The notes: generated by a model from the letters alone, not told the origin. Shown: positions 49,735-64,000, numbered from the stretch's first letter. The stretch is DNA of 64,000 bases from an uncultured Geobacter sp. (GCA_964576485.1 CAZNWF010000002.1:7006-71005), one strand, 5' to 3'. Numbers and translations are program-made.

Positions 49735-50201
49735 GGGGTTTCTCCTCCGATTGTGCCACGCTCAAAATGAACCACCTCAATCCCGCTTTCTTCCACCATT
49801 TCACGGGCAAGCTCATCAGCGTACCCTTCGGCATACACGATCCTCTTGATACCGGCATTAATCAGCATCTTGGTGCAGATAATACAGGGCATGGTGGTGC
49901 AGTACAGGGTGGAACCATCAATATTGACGCCATGCCGGGCTGCCTGAATAATGGCGTTCTGCTCGGCATGTAACCCACGGCACAGCTCATGACGTTCGCC
50001 AGAGGGTACTTTCAGCCGCTCCCGCAGACAGCCGGCTTCCTCGCAGTGACGTATACCGGAAGGGGTCCCGTTATATCCGGTGGCCAGAATATTACGATCC
50101 TTGACCAGCAGCGCGCCAACCTGCCGTCGCAGACAAGTTGAGCGGGTTGCCACCAGAAGGGTGATATCAATAAAATACTGGTCCCAGGTCGGACGGGCCA
50201 T
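49731..50201 (-). CDS. dCMP deaminase family protein
   Basis: [30 protein letters not shown]. Confidence 0.93.
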
Positions 50202-50280
50202 AGCAGCTCCTGCTTGCAAAATCTTTTTACCACGTTATCCTATAAACCATACTTGTATGCAGGTCAATAACGGGGGAACC

Positions 50281-51969
50281 ATGCAGGCCAGGATACTGCT
50301 TGTAGATGACGAAATTCAGATCAGCCGCCTGATCAGCACGGTCCTTGGCAGTGATGGACACCAGACTGACGTAGCCCATACCTGCCATGACGCACTTACC
50401 TTAATCGGGCAACAGTCCTACGATGTCATCTTTATTGATATCATGCTGGATAAAAATCAAGGCGGTTTGGCACTGCTGAAGACAGCCACAACGCTCTCCC
50501 CCACCAGTCGGGTAGTTATGATGACCGGCTACCCGGATGTTGCCACCGCAACTGAATCGATCCGTTACGGTGCCTTTGATTATCTCTGCAAACCGTTTGA
50601 TAGTCTGCAGATCAGCAGCGTTACCCGCCATGCCATTGAAAACCGTAAACTTCATCTTGAGCGGGAGCAGTTCCGAGCCAATCTTGAAGCGATTAACCGC
50701 AGCATCAGTGACGCCATCATCATGGTGGATCAGCACCTTCAGCTACAGCACCTGAACGATGCAGCCCTGCAATGCGGCTACAGCGTTGATCAGCTCGGTC
50801 AAGCAATTGACCAACTAAACACGGGCTGCAACGGTAGTTGCCGCATGGCACTGGCCGAAACCGTCAGAACCGGTCAACGACAGGAACTGAAACGGATCGA
50901 ATGCCGTGGAAATGGTAGCCGCACCAGGATTGTCAGTGTTATCGCCACCCCAACCACCAGTGAAGATGGACACCGCACCGGAGCTGTAGCGGTCATACGC
51001 GATGAAACCGAACTGGATGCCATGGAGCGGCAGTTACAGCAGCGCAGTCACTTTCACACCATTATCGGTCGCGCACCAATCATGCAGCAACTCTTCACCC
51101 GAATCGAGGCATTGGCAGATGTAACCAGTACCGTCCTGATCTGCGGTGAAAGCGGCACCGGCAAAGAGTTGGTGGCCCAGGCACTACACGAATGCGGCAC
51201 CAGGAAGCAAAAGCCGTTTATCAAGCTTAACTGTTCAGCGTTGCCGGAAGGATTACTGGAAAGCGAGCTGTTCGGCCATGTGCGAGGCGCCTTTACCGGC
51301 GCCATTAAAGACAAGATGGGCCGTTTCCAAAAGGCCCATGGTGGCACCATCTTTCTGGATGAGATCGGCGATATCTCGCCAGCCCTGCAGATCCGGCTGT
51401 TACGGGTACTGCAGGAACGGGAGATAGAGCGGGTTGGTGACACAACACCGATCAAGATTGATGTACGGGTACTTGCTGCCACCCACCGCAACCTGCAGGA
51501 CAAGGTACGGCGAGGAGAATTTCGACAGGATCTCTACTACCGCCTGAATGTAGTGCGCCTTGATGTGCCTCCCCTGCGAAACCGACTGGAAGACCTTCCC
51601 CTGTTGGTTGAGCATTTCCTACTCAAGTTTTCACACAAATTCAACCGCACCTGCAGCCGTCTTTCCGAAGATGTGCTGGCTGCCTTCCGCAACCATTCCT
51701 GGCCCGGCAATATCCGTGAGCTGGAACACCTGATGGAACACGCCTGCATCCTCAGCCACAGCTCAATCATCACCTCGGATGACCTTCCAACTGAATTTTT
51801 CAGCACTATTGGTCACCGGGCTGAAACCAGTCACCCTCAACAAGCCCATCCAACGATTGATCTGCAGGAGGCTTTGCGGCGCACGCAGGGCAACCGCACT
51901 GAAGCTGCAAAACTGCTGGGCATCAGTCGCCGAACGTTTTACCGCTGGCTTGAACAGCAAACAGCCTAG
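50281..51969 (+). CDS. Sigma54-dependent activator, REC-PAS-AAA+-Fis HTH
   Basis: GESGTGKE, ESELFGH..GAFTGA, FLDEIGD, WPGNIREL, AAKLLGISRRT; start ATG 50281 after GGGGG. Confidence 0.95.
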   Translation: MQARILLVDDEIQISRLISTVLGSDGHQTDVAHTCHDALTLIGQQSYDVIFIDIMLDKNQGGLALLKTATTLSPTSRVVMMTGYPDVATATESIRYGAFDYLCKPFDSLQISSVTRHAIENRKLHLEREQFRANLEAINRSISDAIIMVDQHLQLQHLNDAALQCGYSVDQLGQAIDQLNTGCNGSCRMALAETVRTGQRQELKRIECRGNGSRTRIVSVIATPTTSEDGHRTGAVAVIRDETELDAMERQLQQRSHFHTIIGRAPIMQQLFTRIEALADVTSTVLICGESGTGKELVAQALHECGTRKQKPFIKLNCSALPEGLLESELFGHVRGAFTGAIKDKMGRFQKAHGGTIFLDEIGDISPALQIRLLRVLQEREIERVGDTTPIKIDVRVLAATHRNLQDKVRRGEFRQDLYYRLNVVRLDVPPLRNRLEDLPLLVEHFLLKFSHKFNRTCSRLSEDVLAAFRNHSWPGNIRELEHLMEHACILSHSSIITSDDLPTEFFSTIGHRAETSHPQQAHPTIDLQEALRRTQGNRTEAAKLLGISRRTFYRWLEQQTA

Positions 51970-52020
51970 TGACACAATCAAAACGTGTCGTAACTGTGTC
52001 ATGACACACTCAAGTGACAC
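51969..52020. promoter_or_regulatory. Array of GACAC/GTGTC half-sites (putative upstream activator sequence)
   Basis: GTGACAC 51969, GTGTC 51985, palindrome TGTGTCATGACACA 51995-52008, GTGACAC 52014. Confidence 0.6.
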
Positions 52021-52105
52021 ACATTTGAAATAAAAAATCCTTTCCAGAAAAGATGTATTAAATATTTACAGCCTGTTATAAATCAAACAAAACTCCCCCC
52101 ACTGC

Positions 52106-52121
52106 TGGCACATATAATGCT
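52106..52121 (+). promoter_or_regulatory. Sigma54 (-24/-12) promoter
   Basis: TGGCACATATAATGCT: GG-N10-GC spacing with TGGCAC. Confidence 0.75.
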
Positions 52122-52156
52122 TTTGTATATCAATAATCAACTCAACGTCCCCTTCT

Positions 52157-53428
52157 GTGCCAGAAAGATACTCCATGGAAGCATCACTCACCGGCAACAG
52201 CCTCCTGCCATCCCCCAAAGCCAGCATTCTGTTGGTTGATGACGAGCCAATGGTGCTGAAGATGCTGCAAACGTTTCTGGACTCACAGGGATATCAGACA
52301 ATCTGCGCCCCTGGTGGCCATGAAGCCCTGGCAATCGCTGAACAGCAAGGCCACGATATTGATCTGCTGATTACTGACATCCGCATGCCGTATATGAACG
52401 GAATCCGCCTGCTGGAAGCGGCTCGGCAGCTGCTGCCAGCGCTACCGGTGCTGCTCATGACCGGCTACACAGATTTTGATCTGGTGGTTGAAGGATTAAA
52501 GCAACATGCCTTTGACCTGCTCTTTAAACCTATTGATTTTGAACAGCTCACCTGGTGTATATCCAGGGCACTGGCCTTCCAGATGACCCAGCGTATGGAA
52601 CAGCAATACCGCACTCGTCTTGAAGAACAGGTGGCTAAACAGACAAAACAGCTCTGCGAACAACTGGAGGCACTACAAGAGGCGCACCACAAAGCCAGCG
52701 AAGTTGCCGAATTGAAACGTGAATTTTTAAGCCTGATCAGCCATGAATTCCGCACCCCTTTAAATGGCATTACGGGATCCGTTCAACTTCTTGAAGATCA
52801 GGGCGTGCAAGCTTCACAGACAGAGTACCTGACACTGCTTAAAGCATCAGCCCACCGCATGACAACGCTGGTCAACAATCTTCTGACCCTTGCAGAGGCC
52901 CGCTCGGCAAAACATTCTACAGGCAACATCATGAACAGCCCCTGCATCGCATTAAAATCACTTGAAAGCAGCTATCAGCCCGTAGCCTGCAATGCGGGGA
53001 TTCAGTTTTTAACCAGCTGTGGCCAACAGGAATCCCTGACCCTGCAGGGGCCCTGGGATGCACTGCATATCATTGCCGGGTGTCTGTTGGATAATGCTTT
53101 TAAATTCACCGGCAGAGGTGGCACGGTCAGCTGTCGTCTCTGGACCGCCCCAGCCGGAACTGACCATCAGGAATCCTCGGTCTGCGTACAGGTAAGCGAC
53201 AATGGCAAAGGCATACCACTTGCCTGCCAGGAAATTATCTTCCAACCGTTTACCCAGCTGGAGCACTACCTGACCCGCCGCAGCGAAGGCAGCGGCATTG
53301 GTCTGGCCATAGTCCGCTCCATCTGCGACAAACTGGAGGGCAGATTAACCCTGGAAAGCAGCCCGGAACAGGGCAGCAGTTTCACCTGCTGCCTGCCCTT
53401 CAAACACTCAACGGTACCTGCCCCATGA
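52157..53428 (+). CDS. Hybrid REC-histidine kinase
   Basis: VDDE, TDIRMP; H-box ISHEFRTPL; DNAFKF, DNGKGI, GSGIGL. Confidence 0.92.
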   Translation: MPERYSMEASLTGNSLLPSPKASILLVDDEPMVLKMLQTFLDSQGYQTICAPGGHEALAIAEQQGHDIDLLITDIRMPYMNGIRLLEAARQLLPALPVLLMTGYTDFDLVVEGLKQHAFDLLFKPIDFEQLTWCISRALAFQMTQRMEQQYRTRLEEQVAKQTKQLCEQLEALQEAHHKASEVAELKREFLSLISHEFRTPLNGITGSVQLLEDQGVQASQTEYLTLLKASAHRMTTLVNNLLTLAEARSAKHSTGNIMNSPCIALKSLESSYQPVACNAGIQFLTSCGQQESLTLQGPWDALHIIAGCLLDNAFKFTGRGGTVSCRLWTAPAGTDHQESSVCVQVSDNGKGIPLACQEIIFQPFTQLEHYLTRRSEGSGIGLAIVRSICDKLEGRLTLESSPEQGSSFTCCLPFKHSTVPAP

Positions 53429-54555
53429 AAATTCTCGCCATTGATGATTCAAACGTCAACCTGCTGGTCATGAAAGGCACCCTGGAGAAATACCTGACCG
53501 ATGCCCAACTGAAAACGGCCTGTTCAGGCAAGGAGGGGTTAGACCTGGCGCGCAGCTGGCACCCGGACACCATCCTGCTTGATCTGCAGATGCCTGACAT
53601 GGATGGTTATGAAACCATCCGGCACCTCAAACAAAATCCGGCAACTGCTTATATTCCGGTTATTGTTATCACCGCTGCTGATGTTGATTCAAAAGACCGG
53701 GTCAGGACCCTTGATCTGGGAGCAGATGCCTTTCTGCAAAAACCTATTTCCAGCCATGAACTGGTGGCCCATATCAAGGTCATGTTGCGGATAAAAAAGG
53801 CTGAGGAACGCTTACGCCATTCACAGAAACTGGAGGCGATCGGCATACTGGCTGGCGGAGTAGCCCATGATTTCAACAATATCCTGACGGTCATCAGGGG
53901 TTATAGCACCATGCTGCTGATGCAAACAGCACCGGACAACCCCAACCATGAAAGCCTGCAGATGATTGTGGATGCAGCAAAACGGGCAACCAGCCTGACC
54001 CAAAGCCTGCTGACCTTCAGTCGCAAACAGGAATCAACCCCTTCAAAGGCAGAACTCTGCACCCTGGTTTCCAGCTTTGAGAAGTTTCTGAGAAGAATTA
54101 TCGGAGACAACATTACACTCAATTTTGTCTGTGATCAGCATACGGTCCATGCCAGCGTAGACCGTAGCATGATTGAACAGATGCTGATGAACCTGGCTAT
54201 TAATGCCCGTGACGCCATGCCTGATGGCGGCCAACTGACCATAGCCACAGCACACGTCATACTTGACAGCAAATCAGCGTCAGCACTTGAACTCTCACCA
54301 GGCACCTATATGCATCTGACCGTGTCAGACACCGGATGTGGCATCCCAGAAGAACTTCTCCCTAAGATCTTTGATCCGTTTTTCACCACCAAAGAAATCG
54401 GCAAAGGGAGCGGACTGGGACTATCCATGGTGTATGGCATTGTCAAACAGCACTGTGGCACCATCAGTGTAGAAAGTGCGCCTGGCAACGGCACCACTTT
54501 TTCCATCTATCTGCCAGCCAACGAGGTGCCTGAAACCTCACAGGAACAGCAGTAA
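53425..54555 (+). CDS. Hybrid REC-histidine kinase (CckA-like H-box)
   Basis: LDLQMP; AHDFNN; NARDAM, DTGCGI, PFFTTK, GSGLGL. Confidence 0.93.
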   Translation: MKILAIDDSNVNLLVMKGTLEKYLTDAQLKTACSGKEGLDLARSWHPDTILLDLQMPDMDGYETIRHLKQNPATAYIPVIVITAADVDSKDRVRTLDLGADAFLQKPISSHELVAHIKVMLRIKKAEERLRHSQKLEAIGILAGGVAHDFNNILTVIRGYSTMLLMQTAPDNPNHESLQMIVDAAKRATSLTQSLLTFSRKQESTPSKAELCTLVSSFEKFLRRIIGDNITLNFVCDQHTVHASVDRSMIEQMLMNLAINARDAMPDGGQLTIATAHVILDSKSASALELSPGTYMHLTVSDTGCGIPEELLPKIFDPFFTTKEIGKGSGLGLSMVYGIVKQHCGTISVESAPGNGTTFSIYLPANEVPETSQEQQ

Positions 54556-54597
54556 ACCGGCATTGAGGAACAAAGTCTAAAAAATATGCAACCAGAC

Positions 54598-54625
54598 GTG
54601 ACATTCAAAAGACAGATGCTATACT
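54598..54625 (+). promoter_or_regulatory. Possible internal sigma70 promoter
   Basis: GTGACA-N16-TATACT upstream of the cytochrome gene. Confidence 0.4.
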
Positions 54626-54680
54626 TTCCCCATCAACTCAGACGACTGAGCTAAACGCTTTCAAAGGAGAAGAGAAACAG

Positions 54681-55145
54681 ATGAAACGTCTTACACTGAT
54701 CAACGCCGGACTTCTGGTACTGTTCTGCGTCTGCTGCGCTGCTGCAGCAACCAGCACACCGCCACTACCCAAATATCAGAGTTGGAAGAAGAGTGTTCGA
54801 AAAGTGGTAGCGGATAAAAAATCACTTTTTTACGGCATCCACTATATCTATGCCGACCCCAAGGCGATCAAAGGCTACCAGGCCGGCAACAAGTTTCCAG
54901 AAGGAAGCCGGATTGTGGTTGAGCATTTCAACATCAAAGGGGACAGCACTGTTGACGGTCCAAAAAACATGGTGGTGCTGATGAAAAAAGACAAGTCCCA
55001 AAAGACTACGGGGGGATGGCTGTATGCCGGTTATACGGCAGAAGGGAAACCCAGCCGCCTTGATCCGGTTAAGAACTGTTTTGAGTGCCACCAGAAGGAA
55101 GTTGCCGGACGGGATTACGTCTTTTCCGGCATTGTAGACTTTTAA
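54681..55145 (+). CDS. Cytochrome P460 / c'-beta fold periplasmic cytochrome c
   Basis: Signal peptide; HYIYA, FPEGSRIV, MKK...GGWLY, C-terminal CFECH...DYVF. Confidence 0.85.
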   Translation: MKRLTLINAGLLVLFCVCCAAAATSTPPLPKYQSWKKSVRKVVADKKSLFYGIHYIYADPKAIKGYQAGNKFPEGSRIVVEHFNIKGDSTVDGPKNMVVLMKKDKSQKTTGGWLYAGYTAEGKPSRLDPVKNCFECHQKEVAGRDYVFSGIVDF

Positions 55146-55162
55146 GCTAAAGGAGTACCACC

Positions 55163-55561
55163 GTGAAATGTCTGATTGTTGAAGATGACTTCATCTCTCG
55201 CCGGATCCTCAGGGAACTGCTGGGGGCTTACTTTGATTGTGAAATTGCCGTTGATGGCGAAGAAGCGGTAACCGCCTTCAAGATGGCCCATGACGCCAAA
55301 ACCCCCTATGAGCTGATCTGCATGGACATCATGATGCCCAAGATGGATGGGCGTGAGGCACTACGCCTGATACGACAGCTCGAAAAAGAGCTTGAAGTGC
55401 CGCCCAATCTGGAGGTCAAGGTTGTTATGACCACGGCATTTGATGACCCCAAGACAGTCTTTGACTCATTTTATCAGGATGGCGCCACCGCCTATCTGGT
55501 CAAGCCGATCAGCAAACAGAAACTGGTCAGGGAACTCCGCGCCCTGGGACTGATTCAGTAG
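55163..55561 (+). CDS. Single-domain response regulator
   Basis: VEDD, MDIMMP, TTA, KP. Confidence 0.92.
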   Translation: MKCLIVEDDFISRRILRELLGAYFDCEIAVDGEEAVTAFKMAHDAKTPYELICMDIMMPKMDGREALRLIRQLEKELEVPPNLEVKVVMTTAFDDPKTVFDSFYQDGATAYLVKPISKQKLVRELRALGLIQ

Positions 55562-55589
55562 CACTTCGTCGGCGAAAGGAATCTGGCCT

Positions 55590-57380
55590 ATGCCCCCGCA
55601 TCTCTGCAATCAGCTCGTACAATGGAGCAGTAGTCTGACTCCTACCATACAGATTCTGCAACGACTTGCTGGCAGCACAGAGGATCAGTTTCTGGAGTTG
55701 GGCGGAAAACTGCAGGACTTTGCCATCCGCTCTTCAAAAATATCGTCAGTTTCCAGCGAGCTGGTGGAACTGGTTGCCGGCTCTGAAAGCTGCCAGCTGA
55801 CAGAACGGCTTCGTCATCTGTTTAGTGACATGAATGACTATCTGGAGCGGGTCAACACCCAGGGTACGCAAAGTTGCAGCACCCTGGAACAGATCATGGT
55901 CCAGCTTGACAAGGTCATACAACCCCTGGAAGGGTTTCAGAAGATGGACAAGGCGCTGCGGATGCTCTCCATCTCCACCAAGATTGAATCTGCCAGACTG
56001 GGAGAACTGGGAGCCGGTTTTACCACCCTGGCCATGGATGTTGAAAAACTTTCCCAGACCGTCAGTGAGAAATCTGCCGGCATCATGATCCAGCGCCAGT
56101 CTTTGGCTCAGTTAATCAGCAACAACCTGCAGATGGTGCGCACCACAGAAGAACATCACTACACCGATGCCCACAAGATCCTGACCGCTGTCGGCAACAA
56201 CCTTGAAACCCTGTCGAACCTGAACACCACCTGTTCTGCCACCGGCAATCAGGTCGCCCTGATATCAGAACAGATCTCTTCCGATATTGGTGCCGTAGTA
56301 GCCTCCATGCAGTTTCATGACATCACCCGTCAACAGATCGAGCATGTCATTGAGGCGCTTGAAAAACTACTGCAACACACCTGCAGTAACACAGCTCCCA
56401 ACGACGACACCTGTTTGGCCGCGGTTACCGAAATAGGCGACATCTGCGAACTGCAAACCGCCCAGACCAGACACGCAGCTGATCAGCTGGCCAAGGCGAC
56501 CAACACCATTCTGGACAGCCTGCGGGATATAGGATCGAAACAGACCCAGATCAGCCTGGAATTACAACAGGCGTTGATGGGCAATTCAGGTTCAGCCGAG
56601 ACATCCCTCCTGGAAACCATGGAAAAGGAAATGCATCAAGTCACCCTGATCCTGCAAAACTGTGAAAAGGCCGATCAGGAACTTTCAACGGCCATGCAGA
56701 AGGTAACCGGCACCATGGCAGAGATCGGCGGATTTGTCAGCGATATCGAAGCGGTTGGCTCTGAAATCGACCTGATCGCCTTAAACGCCCAGATCAAGGC
56801 CGCCCACACCGGCCCCCAGGGAGCTGCTCTGGGGGTGCTGGCTGAAGCGATCAAGCGACTTTCCCTGGAGGCAGTTGTCCAGACTGAGGCGGTTTCAAGC
56901 ACACTGCAAGCCATTAACGGCATCACCGCCAACATGGCGGATCAGGATGTTCTGGAGGCCGGTGACAGTGCACAACAGGTAAGCGAGATGGAGCAGGAAG
57001 CCCAACAGATCATCTCCTCTCTGTCCGTCATCAACCGTTCGCTGCTGCAGCAGCTTTCAACACTGGCAAGCACGGCTGAGTCGCTTTCAGACGAAATCAA
57101 CCTGACCACATCCAGTATTCATGTGCATGAAGAGATCCAGCAGCAGACGGAACAGGCGGTGCAGACCCTTGAACAGATCTATACGGAGGCACGGGCGCAA
57201 GTGCCTGCTTCAAGCGAATTCAGAGACAACCTGCGGCACATGGAACAACGCTACACCATGGAAAGTGAACGAATGATCCACGAAATGATGGCTGCCCGCC
57301 ACGGAGTCAGTCTTTCCCTGCAGAAACAGCAGGAGAACAGCAGCAACTCTGAATACGGCGACAATGTTGATTTATTCTAG
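55590..57380 (+). CDS. Soluble MCP-like chemotaxis protein with two signalling-tip motifs
   Basis: MLSISTKIESARLGELGAGF and LIALNAQIKAAHTGPQGAAL; no TM segments; ends in NVDLF. Confidence 0.8.
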   Translation: MPPHLCNQLVQWSSSLTPTIQILQRLAGSTEDQFLELGGKLQDFAIRSSKISSVSSELVELVAGSESCQLTERLRHLFSDMNDYLERVNTQGTQSCSTLEQIMVQLDKVIQPLEGFQKMDKALRMLSISTKIESARLGELGAGFTTLAMDVEKLSQTVSEKSAGIMIQRQSLAQLISNNLQMVRTTEEHHYTDAHKILTAVGNNLETLSNLNTTCSATGNQVALISEQISSDIGAVVASMQFHDITRQQIEHVIEALEKLLQHTCSNTAPNDDTCLAAVTEIGDICELQTAQTRHAADQLAKATNTILDSLRDIGSKQTQISLELQQALMGNSGSAETSLLETMEKEMHQVTLILQNCEKADQELSTAMQKVTGTMAEIGGFVSDIEAVGSEIDLIALNAQIKAAHTGPQGAALGVLAEAIKRLSLEAVVQTEAVSSTLQAINGITANMADQDVLEAGDSAQQVSEMEQEAQQIISSLSVINRSLLQQLSTLASTAESLSDEINLTTSSIHVHEEIQQQTEQAVQTLEQIYTEARAQVPASSEFRDNLRHMEQRYTMESERMIHEMMAARHGVSLSLQKQQENSSNSEYGDNVDLF

Positions 57381-57395
57381 GGCCGGGGAGACACC

Positions 57396-57755
57396 ATGTC
57401 TGATCTAACGCTTACCCACAGTACCAGTAGCGACGGCAGCACCCTCAGCATCAGTGTGGCAGGCAAGCTGGCCATTGACACCGCCCCTGCCCTGCACAGT
57501 CTGCTGCTTGAACAGAGTGGCCCGGTTGCCAACATCCAGATGGATGTCTCTGCGGTTGATGAAATTGACCTTGCCGGTGTGCAGCTGATCTGTTCCGCCT
57601 GCCGGACCGCGCTTGATGCGCAGAAACGTTTCAATTTTGCAGGCTGCATGGCCCCTGACGTAAAAAAAGCTATCGATACCGTTGGGCTGCAGCGCCAGAC
57701 CACCTGCAAGCACAACGCCGATTTACCCTGTATCTGGTGTGGAGGAATAAACTGA
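57396..57755 (+). CDS. STAS domain protein
   Basis: GKLAI, DVSAVDEIDLAGVQLI. Confidence 0.85.
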   Translation: MSDLTLTHSTSSDGSTLSISVAGKLAIDTAPALHSLLLEQSGPVANIQMDVSAVDEIDLAGVQLICSACRTALDAQKRFNFAGCMAPDVKKAIDTVGLQRQTTCKHNADLPCIWCGGIN

Positions 57756-57756
57756 C

Positions 57757-58122
57757 ATGGCAAAACTGATTATGACCGCTGATGATTCAGCAAGTGTACG
57801 GCAGATGGTGAGCTTTACCCTCAAGCAGGCCGGCTATGACGTGGTTGAGGCAGTGGATGGCAAGGATGCCTTAACCAAACTGGGCACCCAGAAGGTGGAT
57901 ATGCTGATCACCGACCTGAACATGCCCAACCTGGATGGTATCGGCCTGATCAAAGGGGTTCGTGGCGGTGCCCTGAATAAATTTATTCCGATCGTGATGC
58001 TGACCACAGAATCACAGGAATCCCGCAAGTCAGAAGGCAAAGCTGCTGGCGCCACCGGCTGGATTGTCAAGCCGTTTAAGCCGGAACAGTTAATCGCTGT
58101 TGTGAAAAAAGTACTTGGTTAG
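57757..58122 (+). CDS. cheY: Chemotaxis response regulator CheY
   Basis: ADDS, TDLNMP, LTTES, GATGWIVKPF; directly upstream of cheA. Confidence 0.92.
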   Translation: MAKLIMTADDSASVRQMVSFTLKQAGYDVVEAVDGKDALTKLGTQKVDMLITDLNMPNLDGIGLIKGVRGGALNKFIPIVMLTTESQESRKSEGKAAGATGWIVKPFKPEQLIAVVKKVLG

Positions 58123-58205
58123 GGCCAAGGTTCAAGGGTCAAGGGTCAAGAAAAGTCAACAGCTTTTCTCCCTTACCCCTTGACCCCTGCCCCTTGCCCC
58201 TGGAG
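58122..58205. repeat. Inverted heptanucleotide repeat array (GGGTCAA)n...(CCTTGMC)n
   Basis: GGGCCAA GGTTCAA GGGTCAA GGGTCAA, inner GAAAAG..CTTTTC, then CCTTACC CCTTGAC CCCTGCC CCTTGCC. Confidence 0.8.
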
Positions 58206-58211
58206 TTACTT

Positions 58212-60350
58212 ATGTCATCACCACAGGAACAACATATAGCCACCTACCGCGAAGAAGCTGGTGAGCTACTGGCCGAACTGGAGACCTCCCTGCTTGACCT
58301 GGAGGATAATCCACAGGACAATGACCTGATCAACCGGGTCTTCCGGGCCATGCATACCATTAAAGGCTCCGGTGCCATGTTCGGCTTTGATGACATTGCT
58401 CGCTTCACCCATGAGGTTGAAACGGTCTTTGATCAAGTCAGAAACGGCAAGATGCAGGTCACCCGTTGCCTGCTTGATCTTACCCTGCAGGCGCGGGACC
58501 AGATCACCACCATGCTGGAGGCCTCGGCAGGTGGCCCTCCGGCAGATGAAGCAAACGGCCAGCGGATTATTGATGGCCTGCAGCAGTTATTACCGCACGT
58601 AACCAACAAACTGCAGCAGGAACCTGTTGCAGCCGCTCCTGTTGCAGCAACAGCGGAAGCAGATACCAGCCGCACCTACCGGATCCGCTTCAAACCACTA
58701 CCTGAAATCATGCTAAGCGGCACCAACCCGGTCAGCCTGCTGAACGAACTGCGCGACCTTGGTTCCTGTGAAGTCATGGCCCACCTGGACGCCATCCCCT
58801 CCCTTGAGCAACTCATCCCGGAACACTGCTATTTTTACTGGGACATCATTCTCACTACAACCCGTGGCATTGAAGCGATCAAGGACGTCTTTATCTTCGT
58901 GGAAGATGACTGCGACCTAAAAATTGATCTGGTTGATGATGGAAGCGCCGAAGAGGGCGACAGCAGCTACAAGAAACTGGGGGATATCCTTGTTGAGCGG
59001 GGTGACCTCTCGCCGGTTGAGATGCAGAAAATTCTCTCCATGCAGAAACGGTTTGGCGAAATCCTGGTCGAACAGGGGTTGGTGCCTGCCTCCAAGGTAC
59101 AATCTGCCCTTCTGGAACAGCAACAGGTTAAACAGGCCCGTCAAGAGAGGACTGCCGTAACTCCGGCAGCGGCGGCTGAATCCGCCCTCTCCATCAGAGT
59201 CCCGGCAGAACGGCTTGATCATCTGGTCAACCTGGTGGGCGAACTGGTTACGGTACAGGCCCACCTGACCCAGATTGCCAGTAACCGACACGACAATGAA
59301 ATCAGTGCCGTGGCAGAAGAGGTAGAACGGCTGATTTCAGAACTGCGGGATACCACCCTGAACATGCGGATGCTGCCGATCGGTTCCACCTTCAGCAAGT
59401 TCAAGCGCTTGGTACGGGATCTCTCGGCAGAGCTGGGCAAAGAGATTGATCTGGAGACCACCGGAGCAGATACCGAGCTGGACAAGACCGTGATTGAAAA
59501 ACTGAACGATCCGCTGGTGCACCTGATCCGTAACAGCATCGACCACGGCGTAGAGATGCCCGAGGTACGCAAGGCAGCCGGTAAACCAGCCAAGGGGGTT
59601 GTGCATCTGGCCGCCGAACACTCCGGCGACAGCGTGCTGGTCACCATCCGTGATGATGGCGCTGGCCTTGACAAAGAGCGGATCAGGGCCAAAGCGATTG
59701 AACGGGGACTGATCACCGCCACGGCTGAGCTGACTGATAAAGAAATATACAACCTGATCTTTGCCCCTGGCTTCTCCACTGCCCAGAAAGTCACCAGTGT
59801 TTCAGGGCGAGGTGTCGGCATGGATGTGGTCAAGAAGGCAATTGAGGCGTTGCGGGGTACCATCGACATTGCCAGTGAACAGGGCACGGGATCGATTATT
59901 ACCCTGCGGATTCCCCTGACCCTGGCCATTATTGAAACCCTGCTGGTCAGAATCGACCAGAGCTACTTTGTACTGCCCCTGACCATGGTAGAAGAATGTA
60001 TTGAACTGACCCGCGCCGATGTGCAGGCCGCTCATGGCCGCCACCTGGCCCATGTCCGGGGCGAACTGACCCCCTATATCAACCTGAGGGCCGAGTTTGA
60101 GATCGCCGCCAATCAACCGGATATCGAACAGATCGTGATTCTCTCGGTGGGAGGCAAACGGATCGGGTTTGTGGTTGATGATGTGGTGGGAGAGCACCAG
60201 ACCGTGATCAAGACGCTGGGCAAGCTCTACCGTGATGTACGGGGTATCTCCGGTGCCACCATCCTGGGTGACGGTACCGTAGCCCTGATCCTTGACCCCG
60301 GCCTGCTGATGCAGTCAGTTGCCCTGACCGAACAGGAGCAGTTCGGCTAA
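58212..60350 (+). CDS. cheA: Chemotaxis histidine kinase CheA
   Basis: Hpt FRAMHTIKG, HLIRNSIDHG, DDGAG, SGRGVGMDVV, C-terminal CheW domain; ATG 58212 after GGAG. Confidence 0.97.
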   Translation: MSSPQEQHIATYREEAGELLAELETSLLDLEDNPQDNDLINRVFRAMHTIKGSGAMFGFDDIARFTHEVETVFDQVRNGKMQVTRCLLDLTLQARDQITTMLEASAGGPPADEANGQRIIDGLQQLLPHVTNKLQQEPVAAAPVAATAEADTSRTYRIRFKPLPEIMLSGTNPVSLLNELRDLGSCEVMAHLDAIPSLEQLIPEHCYFYWDIILTTTRGIEAIKDVFIFVEDDCDLKIDLVDDGSAEEGDSSYKKLGDILVERGDLSPVEMQKILSMQKRFGEILVEQGLVPASKVQSALLEQQQVKQARQERTAVTPAAAAESALSIRVPAERLDHLVNLVGELVTVQAHLTQIASNRHDNEISAVAEEVERLISELRDTTLNMRMLPIGSTFSKFKRLVRDLSAELGKEIDLETTGADTELDKTVIEKLNDPLVHLIRNSIDHGVEMPEVRKAAGKPAKGVVHLAAEHSGDSVLVTIRDDGAGLDKERIRAKAIERGLITATAELTDKEIYNLIFAPGFSTAQKVTSVSGRGVGMDVVKKAIEALRGTIDIASEQGTGSIITLRIPLTLAIIETLLVRIDQSYFVLPLTMVEECIELTRADVQAAHGRHLAHVRGELTPYINLRAEFEIAANQPDIEQIVILSVGGKRIGFVVDDVVGEHQTVIKTLGKLYRDVRGISGATILGDGTVALILDPGLLMQSVALTEQEQFG

Positions 60351-60958
60351 TGGCCTTTACCTTCTTCTTTCGCGACCTTCCGGTCCTTGAATATGCGGTT
60401 GAGCACACCCTGAAACTGGCCCTGGGCCGCTTACGGATCAAGGTTTGGGATGCAGGCTGTGCCCTGGGGCAGGAACCATATACCCTGGCAATCCTGTTTG
60501 CAGAACGGATGGGTGAAATGGGCTTTAACACTCTCTACCTGGACGCCACTGATTATGACAGTGAAAACAACTTTGGGGATATCGTCACCGCTGCCGAGTA
60601 TAAATCTGAAGAGTTACAGCGGATTCCATCCGATATTTTTGCAAAGTACTTTGAACTGATGCCGGGCAAACCAGGCTATCACAAGGTCATTGATCGCATT
60701 CGGAACCGGGTTTTTTTTAAATACAACGATCTGCTGAAACTGCAGCCGGTCGGATCAGACTACTCCTTAATCGTCTGCAAGAATGTGCTGCTGCATTTTT
60801 CCTATGAACAACGGATTGAGGTTTTAACGATGTACCATCGTTCTTTGGCACCCGGCGGTTATTTTGCCACTGAAAACACCCAGAAGATTCCCCACGAGAT
60901 CAGCCATCTGTTTGAACAGGTGGCCCCTGATGCACAACTGTTCAGGAAGGTGGGGTAA
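60350..60958 (+). CDS. cheR: CheR-type methyltransferase, catalytic domain only
   Basis: TFFFRD, WDAGCALGQEPYTLA, DATD, IVCKNVLLHF, LAPGGY. Confidence 0.85.
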   Translation: MAFTFFFRDLPVLEYAVEHTLKLALGRLRIKVWDAGCALGQEPYTLAILFAERMGEMGFNTLYLDATDYDSENNFGDIVTAAEYKSEELQRIPSDIFAKYFELMPGKPGYHKVIDRIRNRVFFKYNDLLKLQPVGSDYSLIVCKNVLLHFSYEQRIEVLTMYHRSLAPGGYFATENTQKIPHEISHLFEQVAPDAQLFRKVG

Positions 60959-60987
60959 TCTGTTGAAACAAAGAACAATTCAAACGA

Positions 60988-61061
60988 AACCCCTCCAAAC
61001 CTCCCCTTGTCAGGGGAGGCTTAAAAACGTCCCCCCTGACAAGGGGGGATTGAGGGGGGTT
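60988..61061. repeat. REP-like double-hairpin intergenic palindromic element
   Basis: AACCCCTCC...CCTCCCCTTGTCAGGGGAGG...CCCCCCTGACAAGGGGGG..GAGGGGGGTT. Confidence 0.8.
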
Positions 61062-61075
61062 GGGGTTAGCATTGC

Positions 61076-61672
61076 ATGCGGGTAATTCAGCTGGCCAGAA
61101 ACCCCACAACCTACACCTGCCGTTCCTACCTGCTGCTGGGGGACTGGAACCAGATTGATGCCGTCAACACCCTGATTGATCCGGGCACCGATGGCTACAT
61201 CATGGATGAGATAGACCAGATTTACACCGGCTGCGGCAAGGTGCCGGTGGAACAGGTGCTGTTGACCCACAACCATTTTGATCATGCAGCTTCGGCGGAT
61301 CTTTTTAAACAGAAATATGGCGCCACGGTCTACGGCTGGGTGCCCGGTCCCGGCGTCGATGTACTTTTAAAGGACAATCAGGTCCTACGGGCCGGTGATG
61401 ACTACCTGGATGTACTGCACACACCTGGGCATTCCTCTGATTCTGTAGCGTTTTACTGTCAGTCACAGAAGCTGCTCTTTTCAGGCGACACCCAGTTACG
61501 CATCCGCACCGTAGGCGGCAAGTACACCAGGGACTATGTAGAGACCCTGGTCAAGCTGGCCCATCGGGAAATAGAGATGGTCTACCCTGGACACGATGAT
61601 CCCTTTGACAGTGATGTACGCTCATTACTTTTGAACACCCTGCAGAACGTCAGAAACAGCGAAATTGCGTAA
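61076..61672 (+). CDS. Metallo-beta-lactamase fold hydrolase
   Basis: LIDPG, THNHFDH, HTPGH, SGDT, PGH. Confidence 0.92.
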   Translation: MRVIQLARNPTTYTCRSYLLLGDWNQIDAVNTLIDPGTDGYIMDEIDQIYTGCGKVPVEQVLLTHNHFDHAASADLFKQKYGATVYGWVPGPGVDVLLKDNQVLRAGDDYLDVLHTPGHSSDSVAFYCQSQKLLFSGDTQLRIRTVGGKYTRDYVETLVKLAHREIEMVYPGHDDPFDSDVRSLLLNTLQNVRNSEIA

Positions 61673-61703
61673 CAGGTTCTAAATTTCAGAGGAGGTACAG
61701 AGT

Positions 61704-64000
61704 ATGCTGAAAAACATGAAGATTGGAAAACGGTTGGCTGTAGGATTTGCATCAGTACTAATATTATTAACCGTTATTTCAGTAGTAGCCTTCGTCAATG
61801 TCAACAAGCTGAACAGCTCCCTTGACAATCTGGTGAACGACAAAGTGGTCAAGACCACACTCCTTGCTACAACCAGAAACGAGGCCAACACCTCTGCCCG
61901 GGCCATTCGTAACATGCTGCTGGTCAGTGATCCAGCTGAACGCCAGAAAGAGCTGGCACGGGTGAATGAATCCGGTGAAAAGATCACAAAAGCACTGGAA
62001 GACCTTGAAAAAATTGTTCGTTCAGATACTGGCAAAAAGTTCTTTGCAGCTGTCAAGGACACACGCAGTAAGATGCGCATTGACCAGAAACAGGTCATTG
62101 ATCTGTCTCAGGCAGGTAAACGGGATGAGGCAATTAACCTCTTGGTGACTAAAGTACGTCAGTCTCAGGCTGATTACTTTAAGGCCATTAATGAAATGAT
62201 GGCTTACCAACAAAAAGAGATAGAGCACGTTGGAAAAGCTGGACAAAAACTTGCTGATACAACCACCACCATGATTATTGTGATGGGTATTGTAGCCCTG
62301 GTAATTGGTATCTTCATGGGCTGGTTCATCACCAACTCCATCGTCAAACCGGTTAATGCCTGTGTCGATGCAGCCAACAAGATTGCTGCCGGCAACACCG
62401 ATGTCCACCTTGACAGCACTGCCAAGGATGAAACCGGCATTCTGCAGACTGCCATGAACAAGATGGCCGAGGCGATCCAGGCCCTAATCAAAGATGCTGG
62501 TATGCTTTCCGACGCCGCCATAGCCGGTAAGTTAGCTACCCGCGCAGATGCAAGTAAGCATCAAGGTGACTTCCAGAAGATTGTAGTAGGGGTAAACGAA
62601 ACCCTTGATGCCGTAATAGGCCCCTTAAATGTGGCTGCCGAGTATGTTGACCGGATCAGTAAAGGCGATATTCCGCCCCGCATCACTGACAGCTACAGTG
62701 GTGACTTCAACGAAATCAAGAACAACCTGAACGGCTGTATTGATGCCGTCAATGCCTTAGTGTCAGATGCAAATATACTGGTAAATGCTGCAGTGGAAGG
62801 CAAACTTGCCACCCGCGCCGATGCCAGTAAACATATGGGGGACTTCCGTAAAATCGTCGCTGGCGTCAACGATACTCTTGATGCGGTGATCGGCCCCCTA
62901 AATGTGGCTGCCGAATATGTGGACCGGATCAGCAAGGGTGATATTCCGCCCCGTATCACTGACAGCTACAACGGCGACTTTAACGAAATCAAGAACAACC
63001 TGAACGGCTGCATTGATGCGGTGAATGCACTGGTTGCAGACGCCAACCTGCTAGCCAAGGCAGCAGTTGAAGGCAAACTGGCCACCCGCGCCGACGCTTC
63101 AAAACATCAAGGTGACTTCAGCGCCATTGTATCAGGCGTCAACAACACCCTTAATGCTGTTATCGGCCCGCTGAATGTTGCAGCCGAGTACGTTGACCGG
63201 ATCAGTAAAGGTGATATGCCCAAGATCATCACCGACAACTACAATGGCGATTTTAACGATATTAAGAACAATCTGAACGTGCTGATAGAAGCCACCAACG
63301 GCATCACCGCCAATGCCAAACAGGTAGCTCAGGGTAACCTGATGATTGAACTGAAGAAGAGATCTGAAAATGACGACCTGATGGAATCTCTGGCCAATAT
63401 GGTAAACAAACTGAAGGAAATCGTCACCGAAGTACAATCAGCCGCCGATGCCGTTGCCACCGGCGGCCAGGAACTCTCTGCCACAGCCCAGACCCTGTCA
63501 CAAGGTGCAACTGAGCAGGCAGCCTCTGCAGAAGAGATCTCCTCCAGCATGGAAGAGATGTCCTCCAGCATCAAGCAGAATGCAGACAACGCCAGCCAGA
63601 CCGAGAAGATCTCCAACAAGTCCGCCACCGATGCCCGTGAAGGTGGTAAAGCGGTTAACCAGACCGTGGCAGCCATGAAAGAGATTGCCACCAAGATCAG
63701 CATTATTGAAGAGATCGCACGGCAGACCAACCTGTTGGCCCTTAACGCAGCCATTGAGGCTGCCCGGGCCGGTGAGCATGGTAAAGGCTTTGCTGTGGTG
63801 GCTAGCGAAGTCCGTAAACTGGCTGAACGCAGCCAGACTGCAGCCGGTGAAATCAGTGAATTGTCAGGCCGCAGTGTGCAGGTGGCTGAAGCAGCCGGTC
63901 AGATGCTGACCGCCATTCTGCCGGATATCCAGCGCACTGCCGAACTGGTGCAGGAGATCTCTGCATCCAGCAAAGAGCAGGATGCCGGAGCAGACCAGAT
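61704..64000 (+). CDS. Membrane MCP with periplasmic four-helix sensor and poly-HAMP repeats; 3' end runs off the window; not in the ORF track
   Basis: GAGGAGG + [20 protein letters not shown]1, TM2 near 62270-62335, tip [40 protein letters not shown]. Confidence 0.95.
62480..63290 (+). repeat. Three tandem 273-bp (91-aa) HAMP-type repeats within the MCP
   Basis: ACCCGCGC at 62538, 62811 and 63084; repeated [15 protein letters not shown]...[17 protein letters not shown]. Confidence 0.92.

What the first reader, a model, noticed from the sequence alone, without database searches (positions are those of the whole stretch)
50281..64000. Sigma54-linked chemosensory cluster with redox/gas-binding and cyclic-dinucleotide accessory parts
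Seen, all on one strand: bEBP, sigma54 promoter, two REC-HK kinases lacking sensor domains, a P460-fold cytochrome, a receiver, a double-tip soluble MCP, STAS, CheY, CheA, a minimal CheR, an MBL hydrolase and a poly-HAMP MCP. Inference: an alternative chemosensory pathway that may integrate periplasmic NO/redox status and cyclic-dinucleotide level and relay to transcription through the sensor-less kinases and the bEBP. cheW/cheB are presumably beyond the window edge.
Basis: inference. Interest (0 to 1): 0.7.

Follow-up and report, generated by a model that had tools for sequence, protein, structure and literature searches.

The report
Stripped CheR cassette for poly-HAMP receptors
This is a known type of chemosensory gene cluster from Geobacter-like bacteria, but it carries a small cassette (a shortened CheR methyltransferase and a metallo-hydrolase) that travels with receptors built from long HAMP repeats and likely adds a second, untested modification loop that would tune those receptors.

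Summary
All twelve genes and the sigma54 site are real. The cluster continues on contig C21 (cheW, cheY, full cheR, cheB, EAL/HDOD). Its receptor is class 34H and ends in EFEKF, so the core is the catalogued Geobacter type-2 (F8-like) cluster.

The cytochrome (c'-beta-like) belongs to the core. The short CheR and the MBL form a separate, mobile cassette. Nothing supports the MBL as a cyclic-dinucleotide enzyme; the c-di-GMP hint is an atypical MshEN-like motif in CheA.

The cassette tracks receptors with 91-residue di-HAMP repeats. In 121 genomes of the order, all 53 with the short CheR also have the repeat and none of the 38 without it do; 40 of 41 MBL genomes have the short CheR. The reverse fails: 30 repeat genomes lack it.

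The short CheR is its own clade, keeps the SAM-site residues and lacks the N-terminal domain. Best guess (0.4): it modifies the repeat receptor outside the normal CheR/CheB loop, with the MBL as eraser. No binding or activity was shown. This scan noted the CheR–MBL pair before on other DNA. I found no paper on it.

The parts
50281..51969 (+). sigma54 enhancer-binding protein, REC-PAS-AAA-HTH, GAFTGA intact
51971..52008 (.). GACAC/GTGTC inverted repeat and perfect 14-bp palindrome (51995-52008); likely enhancer site for the bEBP (inferred)
52106..52120 (+). sigma54 -24/-12 promoter consensus
52175..53428 (+). REC-HisKA-HATPase kinase 1, no TM (ATG start shared with relatives; ORF caller starts at GTG 52157)
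53425..54555 (+). REC-HisKA-HATPase kinase 2, no TM
54681..55145 (+). P460-fold monoheme cytochrome, c'-beta-like; part of the cluster core across the order
55163..55561 (+). single receiver domain
55590..57380 (+). soluble protein with two degenerate MCP tips, an invariant CheZ-like D244-x3-Q248 and a conserved acidic-hydrophobic tail
57396..57755 (+). STAS domain protein
57757..58122 (+). CheY
58212..60350 (+). CheA with an MshEN-like double motif (about 58974-59120; 24+1+24 spacing)
60350..60958 (+). short CheR (cassette): catalytic domain only, own subfamily
61076..61672 (+). MBL-fold metallo-hydrolase (cassette), complete two-metal site
61704..64000 (+). 34H membrane chemoreceptor with three 91-aa di-HAMP repeats (62526-63335); continues on contig C21 and ends in EFEKF

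Best explanation
The region is a sigma54-promoter-led 34H (F8-like) chemosensory cluster carrying a mobile cassette whose shortened CheR is likely dedicated to the poly-HAMP receptor and is predicted to methylate it outside the normal CheR/CheB loop, with the MBL hydrolase as the likely eraser. Shown: gene content; continuation on C21; 34H class; a normal CheR and CheB in the same cluster; a separate short-CheR clade; nested co-occurrence (MBL within short CheR within repeat receptor); gene adjacency across phyla and across CheA types. Inferred: that the short CheR is active (SAM-site residues kept); that its target is the repeat array (it lacks the N-terminal domain that I recall binds the usual methylation helix, and it follows the repeat rather than the CheA type); that the MBL hydrolyses the resulting methyl ester; and that such marks would bias the array and so CheA output. 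The cytochrome is likely a periplasmic gas-binding input or co-regulated gene of the core. The bEBP likely drives the operon from the palindrome. The final output is not established.
For: Adjacency: short CheR within three genes upstream of the MBL in 76 of 80 GTDB loci (the best 80 of 375), directly upstream in 73. Where a receptor of 450 aa or more lies within four genes, it carries the repeat in 57 of 58 MBL loci and 21 of 22 distant short-CheR loci. Only one ORF in the window's genome has the repeat, the one beside the MBL. Co-occurrence in 121 genomes of the order: repeat 83, short CheR 53 (53 of 53 inside the 83, 0 of 38 outside), MBL 41 (40 inside the 53; my hand count). In 201 genomes of the phylum: MBL 7, short CheR 8, all 7 shared. 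In 5 of 5 fetched loci with short CheR but no MBL, a repeat receptor is the next gene. The cassette sits with CheAs from 34% to 95% identical to the window's, or with no CheA in view. The short CheR forms one side of a 99 SH-aLRT branch against full CheRs (quick tree) and keeps the equivalents of E. coli R98, G127, E129, D154, C229, N231. MBL metal ligands H65, H67, D69, H70, H119, D138, H173 are invariant in 55 of 55 rows; its nearest folds are glyoxalase II/YcbL-type hydrolases. Extended cassettes add a GNAT (separate gene in 13 of 80 loci, or fused to the short CheR) and a histone-deacetylase-family gene, a writer/eraser pair (that query began with a GNAT fusion, so the count is enriched).
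Against: No binding or activity was tested. Thirty of 83 repeat genomes lack the short CheR, five of them with strong multi-repeat scores, so the repeats do not need it. In the phylum draw only 6 of 18 genomes with a HAMP_2 hit at E 1e-12 have the pair. Repeats from genomes without the short CheR show no clear loss of a candidate target residue (K65 0.99 vs 0.98; E39 0.71 vs 0.39; D42 0.88 vs 0.57, confounded by terminal units and distance). Thirteen of 53 short-CheR genomes lack the MBL, so an eraser would be dispensable or replaced, and one MBL (G262) has neither partner. R230 and Y235 are replaced by K and H, and some distant members have decayed motifs. I know no MBL-fold protein methylesterase (recalled). 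Related genomes are not independent, and the top-80 lists are ranked by similarity.
Confidence: 0.4

Rival explanations
1. The short CheR is a non-catalytic or weakly catalytic adaptor that binds the repeats and reports SAM/SAH or docks the MBL, which acts by protein contact, as PqsE does on RhlR or ODP on soluble receptors (both recalled).
For: N-terminal domain lost; R230K and Y235H; decayed motifs in some distant members; invariant family-specific patches outside the SAM site (ENTQK in the short CheR, G22-x-W24 and G52-x-G54 in the MBL); PqsE and ODP appear among the MBL's fold matches.
Against: SAM-site residues and all seven metal ligands are invariant or nearly so in 55 rows; ODP is only rank 32 at 15% identity and below the Pfam cut-off.
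Confidence: 0.2
2. The cassette makes and breaks a small molecule (a methylated or thioester metabolite) that the poly-HAMP array senses; the receptor is not covalently modified.
For: The MBL's nearest solved relatives are small-molecule hydrolases; no repeat residue tracks the short CheR; extra enzymes (GNAT, deacetylase) could form a small pathway.
Against: The short CheR keeps the CheR beta-subdomain and all its solved relatives are CheRs; the short CheR often occurs without any of the other enzymes.
Confidence: 0.17
3. The short CheR is a second enzyme for the ordinary methylation helices of these very long receptors, tethered by the EFEKF tail; the MBL is a loosely linked passenger.
For: The receptor has canonical sites and the pentapeptide; beta-subdomain kept; the MBL is optional.
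Against: Ordinary 34H receptors with the same cluster core do not bring the short CheR; it also accompanies repeat receptors with other tails; the MBL is almost never without it (40 of 41).
Confidence: 0.13
4. One reading: one pathway that integrates periplasmic NO/redox through the cytochrome and cyclic-dinucleotide level through the MBL and CheA, and relays to transcription through the sensor-less kinases and bEBP.
For: Cytochrome beside che genes in 13 of 19 genomes; MshEN-like motif conserved in this CheA family and an EAL/HDOD gene at the cluster's end; conserved sigma54 site.
Against: Cytochrome and MBL assort independently; no nucleotide-hydrolase signature in the MBL; MshEN spacer is 1, not 5, and below the cut-off; bEBP patchy; cluster not among listed nitrate-responsive genes (mapping inferred).
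Confidence: 0.1

Closest known systems
Geobacter 'E. coli-like type 2' che clusters with 34H receptors (Tran et al. 2008, PMC2577667; parts 3-4 of the main text and passages read); F8 class (34H link from passages of PMC7184735)
   Same: 34H receptor with EFEKF tail, STAS-cheY-cheA-mcp-cheW-cheR-cheB order, extra genes of unknown function; sigma54 sites upstream of some Geobacter che clusters already reported.
   Different: No cheD between cheR and cheB in this genus; carries a second, short CheR and an MBL. The paper has no hit for 'lactamase' or 'cytochrome'; its supplements were not read.
Chemoreceptor poly-HAMP arrays (Coles et al. 2026, PMC13446029; abstract, passages, section 2.1 and first part of 2.5 read)
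   Same: Near-identical di-HAMP repeats upstream of the methyl-accepting domain; the repeat profile hits the related kinase arrays 9TRK/9TRJ.
   Different: The receptor here is transmembrane with a 4HB sensor. The paper's main text has 0 hits for 'CheR' and 'methylation' and says arrays typically lack an input domain; supplements not read.
CheR protein-glutamate methyltransferases (E. coli, B. subtilis, P. aeruginosa structures)
   Same: Catalytic domain, SAM-site residues, beta-subdomain.
   Different: No N-terminal domain; starts at the TxFFR motif; CKNVLLH and ENTQK in place of CRNVxIY and GHSE; separate clade.
ODP, the MBL-fold di-iron sensor encoded beside soluble chemoreceptors (recalled; the paper was not held)
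   Same: MBL fold genetically tied to a chemoreceptor.
   Different: His-rich HxHxDH site, Pfam ODP score 21.4 below the 27.2 cut-off, fold rank 32; partner is a membrane poly-HAMP receptor plus a methyltransferase.
MshEN c-di-GMP receptor fused to CheA (Wang et al. 2016, PMC5013675; passages read)
   Same: Two 24-residue motifs in CheA; CheA fusions are already reported.
   Different: One-residue spacer instead of five, Lys for the first Arg, score 35.2 below the 38 cut-off.

Membership tests
Geobacter type-2 / 34H (F8-like) che cluster | 34H receptor | tested here: met
   Orthologue in G006 is 7 residues shorter in each arm than E. coli Tar (36H)
Geobacter type-2 / 34H (F8-like) che cluster | C-terminal EFEKF-type pentapeptide | tested here: met
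   Receptor end on C21 reads EFEKF
Geobacter type-2 / 34H (F8-like) che cluster | cheW, full cheR and cheB in the cluster | tested here: met
   On C21 and in relatives
Geobacter type-2 / 34H (F8-like) che cluster | cheD in the cluster | tested here: not met
   cheR runs straight into cheB in G006, G014, G003, G002 and on C21; a CheD-like ORF is present in other relatives. Genome not searched for cheD elsewhere
F8 class (Wuichet-Zhulin/MiST) | CheA scores best with the F8 class HMM | not testable with these tools
   Class HMMs not held; assignment rests on 34H and gene order
Canonical CheR | SAM-binding and catalytic-domain residues | tested here: met
   R98, G127, E129, D154, C229, N231 equivalents kept; R230 is K, Y235 is H; roles of the residues recalled
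Canonical CheR | N-terminal helical domain (CheR_N, R53) | tested here: not met
   Absent here and across the subfamily
Canonical CheR | Methylates receptor glutamates | not testable with these tools
   Needs an assay
Glyoxalase II/YcbL-type MBL hydrolase | HxHxDH...H...D...H two-metal site and fold | tested here: met
   Invariant in 55 of 55 rows; model pLDDT 96, top fold matches GlxII, BLEG-1, YcbL
Glyoxalase II (GloB) | NCBIfam equivalog cut-off | tested here: not met
   63.7 bits against 200.8
ODP | Pfam ODP cut-off and closest fold | tested here: not met
   21.4 bits against 27.2; fold rank 32, 15% identity
Cyclic-(di)nucleotide MBL hydrolases (Apyc1 and the like) | Family match | tested here: not met
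   No Apyc1 hit for the window protein at E 0.01; minority annotation in relatives. Activity itself untested
Cytochrome c'-beta (P460 fold) | P460-family fold, single C-terminal CxxCH, closer to c'-beta than P460 | tested here: met
   E 1e-17 to 7ZQZ/6HIH/7EAD against 1e-5 to P460 entries; that those entries are c'-beta is recalled
Cytochrome c'-beta (P460 fold) | NO/CO binding, no Lys cross-link | not tested
   Cross-link position not mapped; binding needs spectroscopy
MshEN | Two 24-residue motifs with a 5-residue spacer | tested here: not met
   Motifs present, spacer 1 residue, score below cut-off
Chemoreceptor poly-HAMP arrays | Tandem di-HAMP repeats before the methyl-accepting domain | tested here: met
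   Three 91-aa units
CheZ phosphatase (double-tip protein) | DxxxQ catalytic motif and conserved C-terminal tail | tested here: inconclusive
   D244 and Q248 at 100% in 49 aligned rows, tail LF at 100%; Pfam CheZ only E 0.081, below cut-off

The most novel reading that the evidence does not exclude
Poly-HAMP chemoreceptors have their own covalent control system: a domain-stripped CheR writes methyl marks on the HAMP repeats, an MBL-fold metallo-esterase unrelated to CheB erases them, and in some lineages a GNAT/deacetylase pair adds acetylation. The repeat array would be a multi-site memory and input segment, separate from classical adaptation, spread across several bacterial phyla.
Probability: 0.25. 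Interest if true: 0.85.

Novelty: new variant of a known kind. Interest (0 to 1): 0.52.

Why it matters
How long poly-HAMP arrays receive or shape signals is open: a 2026 structural study of them does not mention CheR or methylation in its main text. A dedicated enzyme cassette gives a direct test in a cultured relative, T. thiogenes or T. lovleyi. If the MBL is the eraser it would be a non-CheB chemoreceptor esterase. The cluster core itself is ordinary.

Tried and rejected
Complex prediction (repeat dimer + MBL + short CheR + SAM) was not available; nothing was folded.

Fusion search: no MBL relative of 350-2000 aa among 7825 candidates (weak). Apparent long short-CheR hits were GNAT fusions or look like frameshifts or misassemblies.

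Specificity-residue test on repeats (365 unique units from 99 loci with the short CheR against 51 units from 27 loci without): inconclusive. My idea that invariant K65 is a modification site lost its support.

My early reading that the cytochrome link is genus-limited (8 of 80 MBL loci) was wrong; it reflected anchoring on the MBL.

RNA runs: contigs from RNA libraries cover the region (X1 in several pieces, one spanning 54643-61060), but contigs cannot show transcription, strand or level.

No plasmid match for the short CheR at E 1e-30. Atlas look-alikes gave only generic CheR and MBL clusters.

Literature: ten searches showed no title or abstract start on a short CheR–MBL–poly-HAMP cassette; most hits were seen as listings only. 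The Wuichet-Zhulin 2010 and ODP papers were not held under the ids I recalled. A search with recalled locus tags gave one unrelated listing. PMC10782961 has no hit for MshEN. Paywalled papers and unread supplements may describe the cassette.
Full report
Observation. A sigma54 consensus lies at 52106-52120. It and a palindrome about 100 bp upstream are conserved in 4 of 4 aligned genomes while the spacer diverges. The contig ends inside the last receptor, but overlaps contig C21 by 55 identical bases; C21 holds the receptor's EFEKF end, cheW, cheY, a full-length cheR, cheB and an EAL/HDOD gene. The closest named records are Trichlorobacter/Geobacter, with MBL identity of 82-89%.

The core is a known cluster type. 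The receptor is one heptad shorter per arm than E. coli Tar, so 34H. Tran et al. 2008 define type-2 clusters by 34H receptors with EFEKF tails and many extra genes (PMC2577667), and PMC7184735 links 34H to F8. I could not run the class HMMs, so F8 is inferred. The genome has five other CheA loci and flagellar genes; the output of this cluster is not established.

The cytochrome belongs to the core. It is found in 110 of 121 genomes of the order, nearly always once. In 13 of 19 genomes that I picked for long contigs it lies just upstream of che genes, in 12 of them the double-tip–STAS–cheY–cheA block. It is closest to structures I recall as NO-binding cytochrome c'-beta. A sensing role is possible but untested. 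In T. lovleyi nitrate-versus-fumarate RNA-seq, no listed gene has a tag between Glov_1424 and Glov_1791 (PMC11972089, table S3 read whole). Accession arithmetic places the orthologous cluster near Glov_1720-1745 (inferred).

The cyclic-dinucleotide hint is in CheA, not the MBL. CheA carries two MshEN-like 24-residue motifs, conserved in this CheA family but with a one-residue spacer and a score below the cut-off. MshEN–CheA fusions are in print (PMC5013675). The MBL has a complete glyoxalase-II-type two-metal site and its fold is nearest GlxII/YcbL; ODP ranks 32nd.

The unusual part is a mobile cassette. In the best 80 of 375 GTDB loci of the MBL, the short CheR lies within three genes upstream in 76. 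Titles include Desulfobacterota, Ignavibacteria/Bacteroidota, Nitrospirota, Negativicutes, Planctomycetota and Acidobacteria. The cassette appears after cheA, before the cytochrome, with distant CheAs, or with no CheA in view. The short CheR is a compact family of about 200 aa starting at the first catalytic-domain motif. In a quick tree, 42 short forms separate from 38 others at SH-aLRT 99, so it is not a recent truncation of the cluster's own CheR. It keeps the SAM-site residues and lacks the domain carrying R53.

The cassette follows the 91-aa di-HAMP repeat. Where a long receptor is within four genes, it has the repeat in 57 of 58 MBL loci and 21 of 22 distant short-CheR loci (best 80 of 535 metagenome stretches). 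In those distant loci the MBL follows within two genes in 36 of the 65 with a downstream gene in view, and a receptor follows directly in 17. In 121 genomes of the order the sets nest: repeat 83, short CheR 53 (all inside), MBL 41 (40 inside the 53). The short CheR is present in 45 of 50 genomes with the strongest two-repeat scores, 7 of 15 intermediate and 1 of 18 weak; I chose those bins after seeing the data. Five of five fetched loci with short CheR and no MBL have a repeat receptor next door.

Against this: 30 repeat genomes lack the short CheR; in the phylum draw 12 of 18 genomes with a looser HAMP_2 hit lack the pair, and two short-CheR genomes (G069, G179, receptor cut by a contig end) had no HAMP_2 hit. 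No repeat residue clearly tracks the enzyme. Kin are not independent.

Mechanism. A CheR without its receptor-helix domain, kept beside a normal CheR/CheB pair and tied to the repeat rather than to the CheA type, most simply acts on the repeat receptor at non-standard sites. The MBL, nearly never found without it, is the natural candidate eraser. Extended cassettes with GNAT and deacetylase genes fit a writer/eraser logic. Adaptor, small-molecule and redundant-CheR models remain open.

Relation to what is known. Chemoreceptor poly-HAMP arrays are described (PMC13446029), with no mention of CheR or methylation in the main text. Ten literature searches showed no description of the cassette (listed under Tried and rejected). 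Earlier notes of this scan reported the CheR–MBL pair, its GNAT/deacetylase extension and the F8-type core on other genomes. The short text shown of those notes does not mention the tie to the repeat.

Verdict. Real; core ordinary; cassette a new variant with a testable, unproven mechanism. Interest 0.52.

Noticed in passing
window 55590-57380: The double-tip protein has Q241-x-H243-D244-x-x-R247-Q248 and a Y-T-M-x-x-E-R-x-x-H block near the C-terminus almost invariant in 49 aligned rows, plus an N-V-[DE]-L-F tail; it resembles the CheZ catalytic site and CheY-binding tail and may be this system's CheY-P phosphatase (lead from e1-3155444).
   Followed up: partly
window 60961-61075 and 58123-58211: Palindromic or heptamer-repeat intergenic elements with other copies in the genome (25 and 9 BLAST rows, self and reverse hits included); the short cheR–MBL gap is only a few bases in relatives.
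   Followed up: partly
G000 contig C21 32377-32751 (-) and 29152-30423 (-): A second CheY between cheW and cheR, and an EAL/HDOD gene closing the cluster, conserved in relatives.
   Followed up: partly
L078, L083, L084, L085, L089 (Geomonas/Citrifermentans): Reduced arrangement: short cheR–MBL–repeat receptor–STAS–cheA with no cheY, cheW or cheB in view, in four of these after a multiheme cytochrome c552 gene.
   Followed up: no
L041, L043, L044, L047, L064; also L023: A FapA-family gene recurs inside the cluster, in L041 between the short cheR and the MBL.
   Followed up: no
L176-L187, L201, L205-L208, L158: A ParA-family ATPase often sits between the MBL and the repeat receptor in distant lineages.
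   Followed up: no
G019, G026, G029, G023 (family f2): Very large expansion of repeat-bearing receptors (21-45 matches per genome) with at most one short CheR.
   Followed up: no
L289 (G272): A 121-aa fragment of the short CheR beside a two-repeat receptor, apparently a decaying cassette.
   Followed up: no
window 50080-50280: The bEBP reading frame stays open upstream, antisense to the neighbouring deaminase gene; the in-frame ATG at 50281 is the likely start.
   Followed up: no
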